From Shigella phage Sf22, in the sequence record MF158045: 64,000 nt of DNA; one strand, given 5' to 3'. Shown here in pieces: positions 7,892-29,256 of this stretch; the stretch's first letter is position 1, and each line of letters begins with the position of its first letter. A model generated the notes under the pieces. It saw only the letters and a list, made by a program, of their open reading frames with translations, was not told where the DNA came from and did not search any database. Both the position numbers and the translations under genes were made by a program.

Positions 7892-8164
7892 TTATTTGTT
7901 CGTATACATCTCTAGATATCGATATACACCCTCAAAACCCTCGTTGAATTCGTCGATGAGGGTTTTCTTATCTTCTTGAGTTAATTCAGAAACAATTTTA
8001 CGGAATGAATTCTGATTTAATTTTCTACCTTCATGCGTTACTCCAATCTCATTCAGAAATGCAATAAAATTAGCACGATTCTCAACAATATCTTCTCTGG
8101 AAAATTTAATCAAAATAGACGCAACAGTAATAATTTCACGAACTGTATCAATGTTTTTATTCAT
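7892..8164 (-). CDS. asiA: Anti-sigma70 factor AsiA
   Basis: 90 aa, MNKNIDTVREIITVASILIKFSREDIVENRANFIAF matches T4 AsiA as recalled. Confidence 0.95.
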   Translation of the reverse strand: MNKNIDTVREIITVASILIKFSREDIVENRANFIAFLNEIGVTHEGRKLNQNSFRKIVSELTQEDKKTLIDEFNEGFEGVYRYLEMYTNK

Positions 8165-9983: not shown

Positions 9984-10619
9984 TCACAGTTCAGATGCTA
10001 CAGTGATTACAGCTTCAATGTTTTCTGCTGAACGTTTAATGTCAAGATACACATTACCGTTTTTAGCGATTTTACATGACATTCCGATATCAGTAAATTT
10101 CTGAATATGATGTTCCATCATTTTGTATCCAAAAATTCGCATATTTCCATTATTGTTAATTTCAAAATTACGAATTCCGTGAGTGCGTTTTTCTAAAATA
10201 GCGAGATAGTTACTGCGATAAGTTTCAACCTTTTTAAGAACAAATCCATTTTCATCTAAAAGTTTTAACATGAAGTCTTTATCTTCTTCCATATCAGAAG
10301 TAATCTCACGAGATTTACGAGTTGCTCGTTTTTTCAGCAGTTCCGGAGCATTTTCCTGTGCGTATAAAGTTGCTGCGTTTGAAATAATATCCTGAGCTTC
10401 ACCAGTAATGATTAATCCATCACCAGATTTCTCTACCAGGCCCTTTTTAATCAATACACCAATATTACTATTAACTACTGCGTTACCTAAATCTGGATGC
10501 ACCTCACGAACTTCTGCAGCTGTAATGAAATCTTTCTTAGCAATAGTAATTAAAATCGCAGCAGTTTTTTCATTCAGAACATCGTTAGAAGCTTTGATGA
10601 TGTAAGTTACTTTAGACAT
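9984..10619 (-). CDS. motA: Middle transcription activator MotA
   Basis: 211 aa, N-terminus MSKVTYIIKASNDVLNEKTAAILITIAKKDFITAAEVREVHPDLGN matches T4 MotA as recalled. Confidence 0.95.
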   Translation of the reverse strand: MSKVTYIIKASNDVLNEKTAAILITIAKKDFITAAEVREVHPDLGNAVVNSNIGVLIKKGLVEKSGDGLIITGEAQDIISNAATLYAQENAPELLKKRATRKSREITSDMEEDKDFMLKLLDENGFVLKKVETYRSNYLAILEKRTHGIRNFEINNNGNMRIFGYKMMEHHIQKFTDIGMSCKIAKNGNVYLDIKRSAENIEAVITVASEL

Positions 10620-10894: not shown

Positions 10895-12220
10895 TTTGAT
10901 TTCCTCTAAATCTTTGGTGTATTCTGTAACTACATCAGTAGTTTTCCAATATTCGTTTTCTTCTTTTTTAGCTTTAGCTTCTTCTGCAAGTTTCTTTGCT
11001 TCGTCGGAAGTCATATGAAAAATATTCATTCCGACTAGTTTATCAACATAAGAAGAATACATCTCAATTTTAGAAAGTTCTTCAGTCAGTTCTTTACGAG
11101 TTTTACCCTGTACAACAATTTCACCTGAAATTACTTTCTTAATGAAATGTGCCTTGGCAAAGGCTAAACGAAATGCTGATTCAGTTTCTTTAATTTTGTT
11201 ATCAATTCGTTTTTGGACATAAGTTTTACGAACTTCAACAAAGTCTTTAATTAAATCAACTACGTTATCGTAAACTTGTAGCTTTCCTTTCTCATTAATG
11301 ACTGTAATATTTTGGGAACGACGCTCAATCAACCCGAAGTCTTTCATAATTTTTGCATGGCGTTCTTCTTCGTTATCGCTCAAAGAATATTCTTTACGGA
11401 ATTTAACTTTGAATCCAAACCCGTGCTCACCGCAAGCATCATCCCATGTAATGAAGCCTTTATCTTCAAGCGGGTCTAAGATTTTACTCACATAAGTTTC
11501 ACGATCATACTTATACGGAATCTCGGTGATATGCATTTGAGTTCGTGAAGTAAACTTATATGTTCCACGAATTTCATATTGCCCATCAATTTCAACGACT
11601 TCACCACGAAATTCTGGGAATTCTACCTTCGGTTTAGTTACTTTCTTTCCTTGAAGAGCTTGCAGTACAGCTTTCTTAACAGAAGAAACACTATGAGGAA
11701 GAATGTAAGTTGCATAACCAGTTGCAATACCGGAAACACCATTAAGAAGAACAGTAGGAATAATAGGCAAATAGAAAGCAGGCGGAATGTGTTCTTTATC
11801 TTGATGTACCGGAGCATATTCAGTATCTTTATATACGTTATAGAAATTTTTACTTACACGAGCAAAAATATAACGACTTGCCGCTGCCTTTTGGACAGTA
11901 CGAGAACCAAAGTTTCCTTGACCATCTAACAGAGGAAAGTTATTATTCCAAGTATTAGCCATCAAAGCACCTGCATCTTGTGCAGAGTTTTCGCCATGGT
12001 GATATCCAAGGTCCGCTACACCGCCTGCAATAGAAGCGAGTTTGTGAAACTTATCTTTATTTCCTCGTGCCAAATCAAGAGCTCGAGCAATAACAAATCG
12101 TTGAACTGGCTTAAATCCGTCAATCATATTTGGGATAGCACGATTTTCAACCGTGTACATAGCATAAGCCAGTGCTTCATTATCAATGATACTTTTTAAA
12201 TCGCGATTATTCAGTTGCAT
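10892..12220 (-). CDS. 52: DNA topoisomerase II medium subunit gp52
   Basis: 442 aa (T4 gp52 442 aa); GyrA/ParC-like N-terminus (GFKPVQRFVI). Confidence 0.95.
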   Translation of the reverse strand: MQLNNRDLKSIIDNEALAYAMYTVENRAIPNMIDGFKPVQRFVIARALDLARGNKDKFHKLASIAGGVADLGYHHGENSAQDAGALMANTWNNNFPLLDGQGNFGSRTVQKAAASRYIFARVSKNFYNVYKDTEYAPVHQDKEHIPPAFYLPIIPTVLLNGVSGIATGYATYILPHSVSSVKKAVLQALQGKKVTKPKVEFPEFRGEVVEIDGQYEIRGTYKFTSRTQMHITEIPYKYDRETYVSKILDPLEDKGFITWDDACGEHGFGFKVKFRKEYSLSDNEEERHAKIMKDFGLIERRSQNITVINEKGKLQVYDNVVDLIKDFVEVRKTYVQKRIDNKIKETESAFRLAFAKAHFIKKVISGEIVVQGKTRKELTEELSKIEMYSSYVDKLVGMNIFHMTSDEAKKLAEEAKAKKEENEYWKTTDVVTEYTKDLEEIK

Positions 12221-25479: not shown

Positions 25480-26799
25480 TCACACATAAAACACATCATA
25501 ACGACCACGAGTGACACCTACATAAAGAAGTTGCTGAGCTAATTCAGCATCTGCATAATGAATACAAGGCGTATAAATGAAAGCACGGTCTACAGACATA
25601 CCCTGAGCTTTATGGAATGTTGATGCAGGAAGTGCTTTCACTTTACTGAACTGTGATTTAGCATCCCAAAAATCACTCCATGGAGCTTTTCCGCCTTTGT
25701 TCCAATTTTTATAAGTTTCTGCCGTTTTACCTAAAAATAGGTTAAACTTATATAGCTCTTCATCAGATGAAATTATTTTAATCTTTTCACGATAATATTC
25801 ATCATCGCCGTAAGTTTCTACTGTTAAATCCCAATGACGAATTAAGTATTCTCCAGGAACACCACGAGCTTTAACAAACGTTGATGTATACTCTGCTTCT
25901 ATAATACGAACTAATTGTCCATTATTAAAAATAATTTCTGATACAGGCTTTCCATCAATTTTATATGTTTTAATTAATGGTTCCTGCATTACAATAATTT
26001 CACCGACAATAAAATCTTTATCAGTTTCAAAAATCTTTTTACGAATAATGCTATTTAACTTGTCAACAGATTTATTCGTAAATGCCATTACGCGATTTTC
26101 AAACAAATCATCTAGAGATTTGACGATTGAAAAATAATTTACCATAAAATCGCGTAAAGCGGTATCACCAGTAAATCCACGTACTCCATGCCCGTCAACA
26201 ACTTTATCATAAATCCACTTACCGTTGCGAACATCAGTAGCTACATCAATAATAGGAGCATTACTGCGTTTAACTTCAGTGAGTTCACACTGATAAAAAT
26301 CTTTATGTGTAAAGAATGGACTGATATAAGCAGTGTTTTCTCCTGGGTCAACAGGTCTAATTTGCTTATTATCGCCTATTCCAATTATAGTACACCACGG
26401 TGGGATAGTTGAAAGCAAAATTTTGAAGAGCTTTCTATCATACATTGACACTTCGTCGCAGATTAATACCCTGCATTTAGCTAAATCTGGTACTTCTTTT
26501 TGTTCAAAAAGAACGTTTTCTTCATACGTAACTGGGTTAATTTTAAGAATACTGTGAATAGTACTCGCTTCTTTCCCCGACAGTTTTGAAAGAATCTTTT
26601 TAGCTGCATGAGTAGGAGCTGCTAAAATAATACCAGTTTCACCCGTAGATATTAAAGCTTCAATGATGAATTTTGTAAGAGTAGTCTTACCAGTACCAGC
26701 AGGTCCATTAATAGTTACATGATGTTTCTTTTCTTTAATAGCCCTCATAACGATGTTAAAGGCATTTTTTTGGCCTTCTGTCAAATCATCAAATGTCAT
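25480..26799 (-). CDS. dda: DNA helicase Dda (SF1B)
   Basis: 439 aa (T4 Dda 439 aa); Walker A GPAGTGKTT. Confidence 0.95.
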   Translation of the reverse strand: MTFDDLTEGQKNAFNIVMRAIKEKKHHVTINGPAGTGKTTLTKFIIEALISTGETGIILAAPTHAAKKILSKLSGKEASTIHSILKINPVTYEENVLFEQKEVPDLAKCRVLICDEVSMYDRKLFKILLSTIPPWCTIIGIGDNKQIRPVDPGENTAYISPFFTHKDFYQCELTEVKRSNAPIIDVATDVRNGKWIYDKVVDGHGVRGFTGDTALRDFMVNYFSIVKSLDDLFENRVMAFTNKSVDKLNSIIRKKIFETDKDFIVGEIIVMQEPLIKTYKIDGKPVSEIIFNNGQLVRIIEAEYTSTFVKARGVPGEYLIRHWDLTVETYGDDEYYREKIKIISSDEELYKFNLFLGKTAETYKNWNKGGKAPWSDFWDAKSQFSKVKALPASTFHKAQGMSVDRAFIYTPCIHYADAELAQQLLYVGVTRGRYDVFYV

Positions 26800-27108: not shown

Positions 27109-27855
27109 TTATCCTCGGATAAGTTTAAAAATTGAACAATTCAGCGGATATCCTCTTTTCAGTTTAAGTTTATCAATAAAAGACAAGTTTTGATACCGCT
27201 CTACACCTTGAATAATTTTATCACACATATCATATTGCATTTCTGCTTCTGACAACTTTTTCACAGTTTTCCAATCCGAGCCTTTAAGAAGAACGTTCAG
27301 TTTAACAACTTCAGCGCCTTCTGCTATGCGAGAACCATCAATACGAGCTTTAAGTGCTATAATTCTTAGCTTAATGTCAGAGGTCTGTTTTGATTTAGAA
27401 AGCTGAGAAATGTGTTCAATTCGGTTTTCACGTTTTTTCTGTATAGCTTTAATTTGATTATAAGTCTTTTTGATTTTAGCCCATTTCTTTTCATCTAAAT
27501 TTAGTTTATGAACTTTTTTCGCAGATGAACGACCAATTCGCAAAGCAAATAAATCACGCTTTTCAATCAACTCTTCTAAAGTATAATCAGAACGAAATGT
27601 ATTATACTTTTTCTTTACTGCAATAACATTCCCTTTAATGTATCCAACGTTATTATCAAAACGTTCTAATGATAATTTCTCTCCTTCAATACGATTATCA
27701 AAAGGTTCTCCCGAGTAAGCGCAAACTTTCTGATCTAAAATGTTCTTAATGTAATTGAAGTCTAAGTTAAAATCTTTAGAACGTCTTTTTGCAGATGCCT
27801 GAGTATGCTCTAAACGACGTTTAATTTTACGAATTTGATTATTAGACAGTTTCAT
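27109..27855 (-). CDS. srd: Srd-position protein (248 aa), lysine-rich, with degenerate HNH/EndoVII-like motif
   Basis: Position between dda and modA as for T4 srd; segment CAYSGEPF...LSLERFDNNVGYIKGNVIAVKKKYNTFRSD resembles an HNH core lacking the Cys ligands. Confidence 0.45.
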   Translation of the reverse strand: MKLSNNQIRKIKRRLEHTQASAKRRSKDFNLDFNYIKNILDQKVCAYSGEPFDNRIEGEKLSLERFDNNVGYIKGNVIAVKKKYNTFRSDYTLEELIEKRDLFALRIGRSSAKKVHKLNLDEKKWAKIKKTYNQIKAIQKKRENRIEHISQLSKSKQTSDIKLRIIALKARIDGSRIAEGAEVVKLNVLLKGSDWKTVKKLSEAEMQYDMCDKIIQGVERYQNLSFIDKLKLKRGYPLNCSIFKLIRG

Positions 27856-27890
27856 ATTTTTCTCACATCTTACGGACGATTGACTACTAT

Positions 27891-27920
27891 ACTATAACAT
27901 TTTTACTTTAACTTGTAAAC
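27891..27920 (-). promoter_or_regulatory. T4-type early promoter upstream of srd-position ORF
   Basis: Minus strand GTTTAC, 18 nt, TATAGT. Confidence 0.55.
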
Positions 27921-27933
27921 AACTTTATGTAAA

Positions 27934-27960
27934 AATGCTTTAAAAATTTCATGGTATAAT
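27934..27960 (+). promoter_or_regulatory. Plus-strand MotA-box plus extended -10 promoter-like element, antisense to modA
   Basis: Plus strand AATGCTTTA (MotA box), 12 nt, TGgTATAAT. Confidence 0.4.
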
Positions 27961-27977
27961 GAATCTAAGTCCTTCCA

Positions 27978-28580
27978 TTATAGATTAAATCCTTCAAAAT
28001 CAAGAGTATAGATAGTGTATGTTGAATACTTTTTGTACTCATATCTATCTGCAATTTTAAATACACTTCCAGCTGGTATCATTACTTCTTGTTCATCTGA
28101 AACTAATTCCATATTACGATAACGATGGCTATCCGGAAACTTAAAGTTTGGATTGTATTCTTTACAGCGTAGAGCTTTTATAGCATACTCCTGGAAATTG
28201 AATACCATAGGAGCTTTGAATTCAAAAATAACTTGTGTGTTATACTCTAAACCGGAAGCAAAATGTAGAGCTATATTTTTATCATATGAAGCTGATACTA
28301 CTTTATCAAATGTAATAATATCAATTCCTTGATTTAATATTTGTTTAGTCTCAACTGGAACACCTCTCCAAAGAGGTTTATCGTTTGGAACCAAACGAGA
28401 TTTGATTATTTCATTTAACCAAGTATGGTCATCTGGCTTATTAGTAATACAATGAATTAAAAGTTCAATTTCAGATAAATTAAACCCTTCAGAAAGTAAT
28501 TCTTCACGAATAGAAGCACGCACCGATGCATCCATTGATTTTATTTTAAAATCTTTTAGTTGCATTACTGAGTATTTCAT
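27978..28580 (-). CDS. modA: ADP-ribosyltransferase ModA
   Basis: 200 aa (T4 ModA 200 aa); ART-like R...S...E-x-E pattern (LWRG, QEVMIPAG). Confidence 0.8.
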   Translation of the reverse strand: MKYSVMQLKDFKIKSMDASVRASIREELLSEGFNLSEIELLIHCITNKPDDHTWLNEIIKSRLVPNDKPLWRGVPVETKQILNQGIDIITFDKVVSASYDKNIALHFASGLEYNTQVIFEFKAPMVFNFQEYAIKALRCKEYNPNFKFPDSHRYRNMELVSDEQEVMIPAGSVFKIADRYEYKKYSTYTIYTLDFEGFNL

Positions 28581-29200
28581 TCAACTACCTCAATATCATA
28601 AACTTTAAATGTTCCAAATGAATCGTGTAATTTTTCTTTTGAAATAGAAGTTATTTTATACTTTCCAATTGGAATCATCCATTCTTGTTCATGTACAATC
28701 ATCATTAAGTTATCAGTACGCTCTGAATCTAATCCATCAGTATCTTCATACGTGTACTTAAACTCAGTATTAGGAGAAGAAAGTATAATATCGCTGATAT
28801 GGTCAGAGTAATTAAAAGCTTTATCAGTTTTTAAACGAAGTATTGTTTCAGTGAAATATTCAGCATAAGAAAAAGAACACGCTGTATGCAAACTAGTAGT
28901 AAATGAATCTACCCTGTTCGTTGAAAACACTTCTCCAACTTGTAAATCTTTAATAAGTTCTTTTGTCGATTTTGATATACCACGATATAACTGATAAGGC
29001 GATTTAGTTAAATGCTTTTTAATGATTTTATTCAATTGCCGATGAAGAGCTTCATTCTTTTTAGCTTCCATACATTGCCAAAGAACAGACTGCTCAAAAT
29101 CAGTAAATTTTTCACAGACCTTTTTATACATATCATATTGAAAATCAACGCTTTCAGCTTTTATAGATAACTGTTCAACATCTGCAAGATTAATAATCAT
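28577..29200 (-). CDS. modB: ADP-ribosyltransferase ModB
   Basis: 207 aa (T4 ModB 207 aa); paralog of modA (LYRGIS, QEWMIPIG); early promoter upstream. Confidence 0.8.
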   Translation of the reverse strand: MIINLADVEQLSIKAESVDFQYDMYKKVCEKFTDFEQSVLWQCMEAKKNEALHRQLNKIIKKHLTKSPYQLYRGISKSTKELIKDLQVGEVFSTNRVDSFTTSLHTACSFSYAEYFTETILRLKTDKAFNYSDHISDIILSSPNTEFKYTYEDTDGLDSERTDNLMMIVHEQEWMIPIGKYKITSISKEKLHDSFGTFKVYDIEVVE

Positions 29201-29226: not shown

Positions 29227-29256
29227 ATCATATCATCGTTAGAAAGGAAAGTAAAC
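29227..29256 (-). promoter_or_regulatory. T4-type early promoter upstream of modB
   Basis: Minus strand GTTTAC, 18 nt, TATGAT. Confidence 0.6.

What the first reader, a model, noticed from the sequence alone, without database searches (positions are those of the whole stretch)
27934..27960. Plus-strand MotA-box promoter-like element pointing antisense into modA
In the srd-modA spacer the plus strand reads AATGCTTTA, 12 nt, TGgTATAAT. That is a good MotA box at the right spacing from an extended -10. Transcription from it would run antisense through modA and modB, both encoding ADP-ribosyltransferases that can be toxic. An antisense RNA could temper their expression.
Basis: seen in the sequence. 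Interest (0 to 1): 0.5.

Follow-up and report, generated by a model that had tools for sequence, protein, structure and literature searches.

The report
Conserved antisense MotA promoter behind modA
Just downstream of the toxic modA gene of a T4-type phage sits a near-perfect, strongly conserved middle-phase promoter that points backwards into modA; it closely matches the promoter of the T4 replication origin oriF and is absent from the list of mapped T4 promoters I could read.

Summary
The motif is real: + strand AAATGCTTTA (27933-27942), 12 nt, TATAAT (27955-27960), with TGg before it. Shuffles predict 0.04 such sites per window.

A matrix built from the 58 mapped T4 middle promoters ranks the T4 copy second of all sites on both strands of T4, above every mapped promoter. 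It is not in that list of 58. Its RB69 counterpart appears only in a 2006 supplementary table of predictions.

The box, the spacing and the -10 hold in at least 11 genera that carry MotA, although ModA itself drops to about 30% identity. The element always lies 3' of the ADP-ribosylation gene and points into it. It is missing from the one RB49-type genome examined; RB49 itself lacks motA.

From -15 to +6 it is identical to T4 PuvsY, the oriF promoter. The shared "-10 plus start region" signature marks four T4 sites: two mapped sense promoters and two unmapped antisense ones.

Best reading: a working MotA/AsiA promoter that drives antisense transcription into modA-modB. Its purpose is inferred. 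Shut-off of these genes is favoured; an R-loop origin role is the main rival. No transcript data could be read.

The parts
27933..27942 (+). MotA box AAATGCTTTA, centred near -30 of the predicted start
   Evidence: 10 of 10 match to (a/t)(a/t)(a/t)TGCTT(t/c)A. TGCTTT is invariant or nearly so in 11 genera.
27943..27954 (+). 12-nt spacer AAAATTTCATGG; its last three bases TGG (27952-27954) provide the extended -10 TGn
   Evidence: Spacing of 12 (13 in most other genera, 14 in Minot) fits 12 +/- 1. The only two variable columns among 17 Tequatrovirus copies, 27946 and 27951, fall here.
27955..27960 (+). Sigma-70 -10 hexamer TATAAT
   Evidence: Perfect consensus and invariant in all genera examined (2.0 bits per column).
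27961..27976 (+). Bases between -10 and start (GAATCT), predicted start A at 27967, and conserved first transcribed bases AAGTCCTTCC
   Evidence: 27952-27972 is identical to T4 PuvsY from -15 to +6, whose start is mapped at T4 115371. A matrix of the 14 nt after the -10, built from uvsY promoters of other genera, scores this site at 10.3-11.9 bits, against 1.2 or less for 30 ordinary mapped promoters.
27978..28580 (-). modA, the first gene entered by the predicted antisense transcript; its stop codon is 11 nt from the predicted start
   Evidence: ORF and T4 annotation. No intrinsic terminator lies between the start and the gene.
28577..29200 (-). modB, upstream partner of modA in the same early transcription unit; second possible antisense target
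   Evidence: A predicted early promoter for the unit lies at 29227-29255 on the minus strand.
27891..27920 (-). Early promoter of srd: GTTTACA, 17 nt, TGtTATAGT. It lies back to back with the + strand element, whose MotA box falls at about -50 to -58 of this promoter
   Evidence: Annotated as a predicted early promoter in phages fPS-90 and Lutter. Its position relative to the element is not conserved across genera.
27109..27855 (-). srd, the gene on the other side of the spacer
9984..10619 (-). motA, the activator that would recognise the box
   Evidence: 211-aa ORF. tblastn hits are annotated MotA in T4-type phages.
7892..8164 (-). asiA, the co-activator needed for sigma appropriation
   Evidence: 90-aa ORF found by a six-frame search. 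It matches T4 AsiA as I recalled the sequence, 90 of 90. T4 asiA is annotated at the corresponding position.

Best explanation
This is a working MotA/AsiA-dependent middle promoter, placed tail to tail with modA and firing on the + strand from about 27967 into modA and then modB.

Mechanism:
- After early proteins accumulate, AsiA remodels region 4 of sigma-70. MotA then binds AAATGCTTTA at about -30, while sigma-70 reads TGgTATAAT.
- The contacts from -15 to +6 are base for base those of PuvsY, a listed mapped middle promoter. The site should therefore switch on at the early-to-middle transition.
- Polymerases leaving it run head-on into polymerases coming from the early modB-modA promoter about 1.25 kb away. 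They also produce RNA complementary to the 3' part of that mRNA.
- The expected result is a MotA-timed shut-off of two ADP-ribosyltransferase genes whose products are harmful if made for too long, and less read-through into the next gene.

Shown: the sequence match, the rank in the genome scan, the conservation pattern, the fixed position and orientation, and the co-occurrence with motA in the genomes examined.

Inferred: that it is transcribed, that it depends on MotA, and what the transcript does.

My estimates: about 0.85 that it is an active promoter in vivo, and about 0.45 that shut-off of modA/modB is its main purpose.
For: Match and rank:
- Consensus box, 12-nt spacing, TGn and a perfect -10.
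- Chance expectation is 0.043 per window, or 0.003 with TGn.
- The T4 copy is the top matrix hit in T4 1-50 kb and second in the whole genome on both strands, above all 58 mapped promoters.

Required factors: motA and asiA are both in the window.

Conservation:
- Within Tequatrovirus, the box and -10 are invariant in 17 aligned copies. 503 of 548 records match a 48-nt query at 95% or better.
- Across genera, TGCTTT, 12-13 nt, TATAAT is kept on the antisense strand in Mosig-, Gapriver-, Dhaka-, Kanagawa-, Karam-, Winkler-, Gelderland- and Jiaodavirus, in Klebsiella phage Clarke, and with 14 nt in Acinetobacter phage Minot. The spacer and flanks are not conserved.
- ModA protein falls to about 28-35% identity between these genera.

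Position:
- The element always lies 3' of the ADP-ribosylation gene and points into it. This holds in Clarke, where dmd is inserted between modA and srd.
- It holds in 10 of 10 IMG/VR loci found in this gene context.
- It holds wherever the srd early promoter lies.

Link to MotA: the element is missing from the one Krischvirus genome examined. RB49, of that genus, lacks motA and middle promoters (PMC1524935).

Link to a mapped promoter: 21 nt are identical to PuvsY from -15 to +6, and 25 of 26 through +11.

Reach: no intrinsic terminator lies between the start and modA.

Motive: ModA synthesis is highly toxic to E. coli, and Hinton 2010 says other, as yet unknown strategies stop early transcription.
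Against: - No transcript evidence was available. The site is not among the 58 mapped T4 middle promoters.
- As I recall the abstract of Stoskiene et al. 2007, some good consensus matches give no transcript. I could not check whether this site was tested.
- No conserved terminator or RNA structure defines a discrete antisense RNA. The first 154 nt fold no better than shuffles (z = +0.58).
- In Acinetobacter phage Minot a strong terminator at +130 would stop the transcript before the upstream gene.
- The shared downstream signature also marks ordinary sense promoters (PnrdC.7, PuvsY) and an antisense site next to late genes 3 and 2, which have no obvious toxicity link. The promoter class is therefore not specific to shut-off of toxic genes.
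- Deleting modA does not change the decline of early transcription, so the importance of precise modA timing is not established.
Confidence: 0.45

Rival explanations
1. Origin-type promoter. Like oriF (PuvsY) and oriG (P34i), the transcript forms a persistent R-loop in the A+T-rich DNA just downstream and primes leading-strand DNA synthesis, here rightwards. Antisense orientation would then be incidental, as it is at oriG.
For: - It is identical to the oriF promoter from -15 to +6 and shares the downstream signature of uvsY promoters in many genera.
- The T4 record notes that the oriG primer RNA runs opposite to gene 34 and the oriE primer is the complement of the gene 5 transcript, so antisense primers are normal in T4.
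- The minimal oriF and oriG are a middle promoter plus an A+T-rich unwinding element (PMC3016281).
- The first 100 nt downstream are 72% A+T, near the 90th percentile of low duplex stability.
- modA toxicity could have kept this fragment out of the plasmid screens that found oriF and oriG (my inference).
Against: - Genome-wide mapping reported five early origins (A, C, E, F, G). The nearest, oriA, is placed near soc and is annotated at T4 16763, which is 3.5-5 kb away.
- All four T4 origins whose record notes I read (A, E, F, G) prime in the minus direction. This site would send a fork head-on into early and middle transcription.
- The duplex-stability measure does not separate known origins from ordinary promoters, so that test is uninformative.
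- The signature is also carried by PnrdC.7 and by a sense promoter in an EcS1-like genome, which are not known origins.
Confidence: 0.17
2. Boundary or roadblock element. The conserved role is local. A stable MotA/AsiA-polymerase complex, and its head-on transcription, stop early read-through from the modB-modA unit into the next gene (srd or dmd), or compete with the neighbouring srd early promoter. The antisense RNA itself does nothing.
For: - The element always sits in the spacer between the ADP-ribosylation gene and the next co-directional gene. The second antisense class member sits likewise between genes 2 and 3.
- In T4-type genomes the box overlaps the -50 to -58 UP-element region of the srd early promoter. 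In CC31, X20, Melville and pKp20 the two promoters face each other with nearly coincident starts and would exclude each other.
- No intrinsic terminator was found in the modA-srd spacer.
Against: - The geometry relative to the srd early promoter is not conserved: upstream at variable distance, downstream, or separated by the whole dmd gene in Clarke. Promoter competition therefore cannot be the conserved function.
- The roadblock idea is hard to separate from the favoured explanation, since both rely on convergent transcription.
Confidence: 0.12
3. Promoter of a functional non-coding RNA whose conserved 5' end (AAGUCCUUCC-like) matters, rather than its overlap with modA.
For: - The first 8-10 transcribed bases are conserved across genera and across four T4 sites.
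- In Minot the promoter is followed by a roughly 135-nt region with GC-rich hairpins, one with a UUCG loop on this strand, and a strong terminator (z = -2.3).
Against: - No terminator or structure is conserved in Tevenvirinae, and the window RNA folds no better than shuffles.
- No Rfam family matches.
- The same 5' bases head ordinary mRNAs such as uvsY and nrdC.7.
Confidence: 0.08
4. Silent consensus match. The site is not used in vivo, for example because it is occluded by early-promoter complexes or by DNA modification context. It is conserved for another reason, such as a recombination cassette shared with the uvsY promoter.
For: - It is not in the list of 58 mapped promoters.
- As I recall, Stoskiene et al. 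2007 reported good matches that give no transcript.
- Hinton 2010 notes potential promoters with an excellent -10 that are inactive.
- The 21-nt identity with PuvsY within T4 could reflect gene conversion.
Against: - Only the positions that polymerase and MotA contact are conserved. Spacer and flanks drift over 11 genera, and the neighbouring protein is at about 30% identity. That is the pattern expected of a promoter in use.
- It is absent from the one genome examined of a genus whose type phage lacks motA.
- Mapping by primer extension with gene-sense primers would not have detected an antisense start (my inference).
Confidence: 0.1

Closest known systems
T4 PuvsY, the middle promoter of uvsY that is also replication origin oriF (start at T4 115371)
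   Same: It has a MotA box, TGG, TATAAT, GAATCT and AAGTCC. It is identical over 21 nt from -15 to +6, and over 25 of 26 nt through +11. The same downstream signature recurs in uvsY promoters of many genera.
   Different: PuvsY is on the coding strand of the gene it serves and is a proven origin. This site has a better box (TGCTTTA against TGCTTCA) at 12 rather than 13 nt, has no gene downstream on its strand, and has no mapped transcript or origin activity.
T4 P34i, the oriG promoter (start at T4 153011)
   Same: It is a mapped MotA-type promoter that lies antisense to the gene containing it. It shows that antisense middle promoters exist and are used in T4.
   Different: P34i lies inside a late gene and primes replication. 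Its match to the shared downstream signature is weak (2.5 bits). The present site is intergenic and faces early genes.
RB69 predicted middle promoter 'Pm:12081' (Nolan et al. 2006, PMC1524935, Additional file 4)
   Same: It is the ortholog, with the same position and strand in the RB69 modA-srd spacer: AAATGCTTTA, 13 nt, TATAAT.
   Different: It appears only as a line in a supplementary table of computational hits (score 7.9). The word 'antisense' does not occur in the paper's main text, and I found no discussion of conservation or function there.
Lambda activator-dependent antisense promoters (paQ and PRE, which depend on CII) and the OOP antisense RNA opposite the 3' end of cII
   Same: From my own knowledge of these systems: a phage activator made in one phase binds in place of a -35 element and switches on a promoter that transcribes against an earlier gene, lowering its expression. 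OOP likewise starts just beyond the 3' end of its target.
   Different: The activator and phage family are different. OOP is a short terminated RNA, whereas no conserved terminator is present here. The regulatory effect is demonstrated in lambda and only inferred here.

Membership tests
T4-type MotA/AsiA-dependent middle promoter | MotA box (a/t)(a/t)(a/t)TGCTT(t/c)A centred near -30 | tested here: met
   AAATGCTTTA at 27933-27942 matches 10 of 10. Consensus taken from PMC2988021.
T4-type MotA/AsiA-dependent middle promoter | Sigma-70 -10 element TAtaaT placed 12 +/- 1 bp downstream of the box | tested here: met
   TATAAT lies 12 bp downstream, preceded by TGn. The spacing is 12-13 in 10 genera and 14 in Minot.
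T4-type MotA/AsiA-dependent middle promoter | Overall similarity to experimentally mapped members | tested here: met
   22.7 bits with the 58-promoter matrix. It ranks 2nd in the genome and above all mapped members. Leave-one-out scores of 30 mapped promoters range from 0.7 to 20.2.
T4-type MotA/AsiA-dependent middle promoter | The phage encodes MotA and AsiA | tested here: met
   motA lies at 9984-10619 and asiA at 7892-8164, both on the minus strand. The element is absent from the one Krischvirus genome examined; RB49 lacks motA.
T4-type MotA/AsiA-dependent middle promoter | A primary transcript that starts about 7 nt after the -10 and depends on MotA and AsiA in vivo or in vitro | not testable with these tools
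   The site is not in the list of 58 mapped promoters. A T4 differential RNA-seq study reports 22 antisense starts, but its table is not held.
T4 R-loop replication origin (oriF/oriG type) | A middle-mode promoter within the minimal element | tested here: met
   As above. In addition it is identical to the oriF promoter from -15 to +6.
T4 R-loop replication origin (oriF/oriG type) | A+T-rich DNA unwinding element immediately downstream | tested here: inconclusive
   Positions +1 to +100 are 72% A+T and fall near the 90th percentile of low stability. The same measure does not set oriF or oriG apart from ordinary promoters.
T4 R-loop replication origin (oriF/oriG type) | Origin activity at the locus: a nascent-DNA peak, plasmid replication or a persistent R-loop | not testable with these tools
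   The reviews list origins A, C, E, F and G. The nearest, oriA, is near soc and annotated at T4 16763, not at 11.9 kb. The primary mapping papers are not held.
Cis-antisense RNA regulator of a phage gene (lambda OOP / paQ type) | A promoter on the opposite strand, within or just beyond the 3' end of the target, whose transcript overlaps the target mRNA | tested here: met
   The predicted start at 27967 is 11 nt from the modA stop codon and no intrinsic terminator intervenes. This is a sequence-level test only.
Cis-antisense RNA regulator of a phage gene (lambda OOP / paQ type) | A discrete, terminated antisense RNA | tested here: not met
   No conserved terminator was found within 1.1 kb in 10 Tevenvirinae genomes. 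Only weak hairpins occur at 28362-28398.
Cis-antisense RNA regulator of a phage gene (lambda OOP / paQ type) | A measurable effect on expression of the target gene | not testable with these tools
   This needs a promoter mutant and strand-specific RNA and protein measurements.

The most novel reading that the evidence does not exclude
T4-type phages carry a small, deeply conserved class of maximal-consensus MotA promoters: TGGTATAAT, then G-n-n-TCTAAG-y-CC across the start. At least two members (3' of modA, and between genes 3 and 2) are dedicated antisense promoters that have escaped mapping. Together they would form a MotA-timed system of convergent transcription, or a set of unrecognised rightward R-loop origins, acting on genes whose mistimed expression is harmful.
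Probability: 0.3. Interest if true: 0.75.

Novelty: new member of a known kind. Interest (0 to 1): 0.6.

Why it matters
T4 middle transcription is the textbook case of sigma appropriation, and 58 of its promoters have been mapped. Even so, two of the three best consensus sites in the genome are antisense, unmapped and conserved across genera.

If this site fires, it would give T4 a defined activator-timed antisense promoter aimed at early genes; I found none described in the T4 reviews and papers I could read. It would offer a concrete mechanism for switching off toxic ADP-ribosyltransferase genes, where the review notes that the means of stopping early transcription are unknown.

It would also provide a natural partner to oriF for asking which features turn a middle promoter into a replication origin. 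The site lies in non-coding DNA, so it can be mutated without touching any protein. A published differential RNA-seq data set could settle within minutes whether it fires.

Tried and rejected
- Chance match: rejected by shuffles and by the matrix rank.
- A sense-strand reading of the conserved block (terminator, late promoter, RegB site): none fits. The conserved positions are exactly the box, the spacing and the -10.
- Competition with the srd early promoter as the conserved function: rejected, because the relative position flips and varies, and in Clarke the dmd gene lies between them.
- A palindromic operator across the start (GGnnCTnAGnnCC): rejected. The class scores 3.26 inverted-repeat matches, against 3.11 for other promoters and 3.05 for shuffles.
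- A structured small RNA in the window: no Rfam hit, and folding is no better than shuffles.
- A conserved terminator for a short antisense RNA: none found in Tevenvirinae.
- The unwinding-element test by nearest-neighbour stability: it does not separate known origins from other promoters.
- Identity with oriA: oriA is annotated at T4 16763, on the minus strand.
- Literature: four searches found no report of antisense RNA at modA. Miller 2003, Tiemann 1999 and 2004, and Brister 2007 and 2008 are not held. The transcription-start table of the T4 differential RNA-seq preprint is not held.
- The first search of viral contigs with Srd gave only six close relatives. The first search with gp3 gave only close or very distant ones.

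Full report
**What the window is.** The window comes from a Tequatrovirus; the 1.2 kb around the finding is 99.5% identical to Shigella phage KRT47. Around the finding the minus strand carries dda (25480-26799), dda.1, srd (27109-27855), modA (27978-28580) and modB (28577-29200). In T4 every annotated feature between 1 and 50 kb is on this strand. The window also encodes MotA (9984-10619) and AsiA (7892-8164).

**The observation.** The + strand reads AAATGCTTTA at 27933-27942, then 12 nt, then TATAAT at 27955-27960. The last three spacer bases, TGG, supply an extended -10. The published consensus is (a/t)(a/t)(a/t)TGCTTtA placed 12 +/- 1 bp from TAtaaT (PMC2988021).

The strict pattern occurs once on + and twice on - in the window. 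Dinucleotide shuffles give 0.043 hits per window, or 0.003 with TGn.

On the minus strand the spacer holds a standard T4 early promoter for srd: GTTTACA, 17 nt, TGtTATAGT at 27920-27891. Two related phages annotate it as such. The two promoters are back to back. The MotA box lies at about -50 to -58 of the early promoter.

**How good a promoter is it?** I took the 58 mapped T4 middle promoters from Hinton 2010, Table 1. I read their sequences from AF158101 and built a two-block matrix: box, variable spacer, extended -10.
- In T4 1-50 kb the T4 copy (+ strand 11863-11890) is the best site on either strand.
- In the whole genome it is second at 22.7 bits. It sits between another unmapped + strand site (22.9 bits) and PuvsY (22.5 bits), and above every mapped promoter, even though those were scored with themselves in the model.

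The site is not in the list of 58. The nearest entry is Pdda.1 at T4 11138.

**Conservation.**
- Among 17 Tequatrovirus copies, including T4 and T2, the box and -10 never vary. The only variable columns within the element (box to -10) are spacer positions 27946 and 27951.
- A 48-nt query matches 503 of 548 phage records at 95% or better.
- The modA-srd arrangement extends to other genera, where the spacer cannot be aligned. The antisense strand still carries TGCTTT(a), 12-13 nt, (G)GTATAATG in Mosigvirus, Gaprivervirus, Dhakavirus, Kanagawavirus, Karamvirus, Winklervirus, Gelderlandvirus and Jiaodavirus. It is also present in Klebsiella phage Clarke and, with 14 nt and TGt, in Acinetobacter phage Minot.
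- Information content is 2.0 bits at GCTTT, at all six -10 positions and at the G after the -10. It is 0.0-1.3 bits in the spacer and 0.1-1.0 bits in the 20 nt upstream.
- ModA protein is only about 28-35% identical between these genera.
- The one Krischvirus genome examined keeps the gene order but lacks the element. Searches for motA and middle promoters in RB49, of that genus, failed (PMC1524935).

**Position.** The element is tied to the ADP-ribosylation gene and not to srd.
- In Clarke, dmd is inserted between modA and srd, and the element stays next to modA.
- Relative to the srd early promoter, it lies upstream at variable distance in five genera. In four others it lies downstream, face to face with nearly coincident starts.
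- In Minot the upstream gene encodes a Macro domain protein.
- Ten further IMG/VR loci with this gene context show the same orientation.

**Prior art.** The RB69 ortholog is listed as "Pm:12081", + strand, score 7.9, in a supplementary table of computed middle promoters. The word "antisense" does not occur in that paper's main text. No paper I could search reports antisense transcription at modA. A preprint reports T4 differential RNA-seq with 150 starts, 22 of them antisense, but its table is not held.

**An unexpected relative.** A pattern search that included the bases after the -10 also returned uvsY promoters.
- In T4 the site and PuvsY, the promoter of origin oriF, are identical over 21 nt (TGGTATAATGAATCTAAGTCC, -15 to +6), and over 25 of 26 nt through +11. 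By this identity the predicted start is the A at window 27967.
- A matrix of the 14 nt after the -10, built from uvsY promoters of diverse genera, scores all 11 modA-side elements positively (1.3-15.9 bits). The 30 other mapped T4 promoters score 1.2 or less, with a median near -10.
- With Tequatrovirus left out of that model, the top four sites in T4 are PnrdC.7 (mapped, sense), + strand 75965 (unmapped), this site, and PuvsY.
- The + strand 75965 site lies between genes 3 and 2 and points antisense into gene 2. It is conserved in several genera.

T4 therefore has a four-member promoter class sharing TGGTATAAT and G-n-n-TCTAAG-y-CC. Two members are mapped sense promoters and two are unmapped antisense sites.

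**What it does.** The contacts made by sigma-70, AsiA and MotA lie between about -35 and the start. Here they are either identical to PuvsY, which is a listed mapped middle promoter, or closer to consensus. I therefore expect an active promoter that depends on MotA (about 0.85).

Its transcript enters modA after 11 nt with no terminator in the way. It opposes the early modB-modA unit, whose predicted promoter is at 29227-29255.

The reading that best fits the fixed position and orientation is a MotA-timed shut-off of these genes, through convergent transcription and antisense pairing. ModA is reported to be highly toxic to E. coli.

Three points argue against it. There is no conserved terminator or RNA structure. 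In Minot the transcript would stop before the upstream gene. The promoter class also includes sites with no link to toxicity.

**The origin alternative.** T4 oriF and oriG each consist of a middle promoter plus an A+T-rich unwinding element. The oriG primer is antisense to gene 34. The likeness to oriF therefore makes an R-loop origin a serious rival.

Several observations count against it:
- Mapped origins are A, C, E, F and G, with oriA 3.5-5 kb away.
- The four origins whose record notes I read (A, E, F, G) prime in the minus direction.
- The stability test is uninformative.
- The signature is not specific to origins.

**Verdict.** The promoter interpretation is strongly supported by sequence and comparison. 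The regulatory purpose is plausible but unproven. The site is a new, unmapped member of a known kind of promoter, with an unusual orientation and an unusual relative.

Noticed in passing
T4 (AF158101) + strand 75965-75993, outside the window; related loci L201-L215 and L052: A second unmapped antisense consensus MotA promoter: TAATGCTTTA, 13 nt, TATAAT | GGGTCTAAGTCCC. It is the highest-scoring site in the whole T4 genome (22.9 bits). It lies in the spacer between genes 3 and 2, points into gene 2, and is conserved in several T4-type genera.
   Followed up: partly
T4 minus strand 53359 (PnrdC.7) and 115406 (PuvsY); window 27952-27976: Four T4 sites share the signature TGGTATAAT, G-n-n-TCTAAG-y-CC across the start. 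Ordinary middle promoters lack it. What the conserved first transcribed bases do is unexplained; a palindromic operator was tested and rejected.
   Followed up: partly
window 27866-27878, minus strand: The hairpin-like motif CGTCCGTAAGATG lies just upstream of the srd ribosome binding site. It recurs in Mosig-, Gapriver- and Dhakavirus. In Jiaodavirus pKp20 it lies inside the spacer of the antisense promoter.
   Followed up: no
window 27898-27937: An imperfect 40-nt palindrome, CATTTTTAC..TTGTAAACAA..GTAAAAATG, is centred on the -35 of the srd early promoter. It showed up as a self reverse match at 80% identity in most Tequatrovirus copies.
   Followed up: no
L028 (Acinetobacter phage Minot), about 780-930, antisense to the genes: Downstream of the Minot copy of the promoter lies a roughly 135-nt region with GC-rich hairpins, one with a UUCG loop on this strand, and a strong bidirectional terminator (dG -13.8). 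It is a possible small RNA. Folding gives z = -2.3 and there is no Rfam match.
   Followed up: partly
L046 (EcS1-like contig IMGVR_UViG_2974737508_000001), motif at 737-767 on the reverse-complement strand of the locus: The same extended promoter (TTGCTTTA, 13 nt, TATAAT | GAATCAAGGTC) occurs in sense orientation upstream of a 348-aa gene that has a weak, below-threshold match to DUF7235 (23.2 bits against a cut-off of 30). The class therefore also drives ordinary genes in other genera.
   Followed up: partly
window 28362-28398, + strand: Two adjacent terminator-like hairpins lie on the antisense strand inside modA, about 400 nt from the predicted start. They overlap the codons for the conserved PLWRG motif, have weak T tails, and are not conserved as terminators in other genera.
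   Followed up: partly
T4 minus strand 46476 (PnrdD) and 156 (PrIIB2): Two mapped middle promoters share part of the bases after the -10 (TATAATGAATCTG and TAAAATGGTTGCTGAG) but score low on the full downstream signature. They may be intermediate forms.
   Followed up: no
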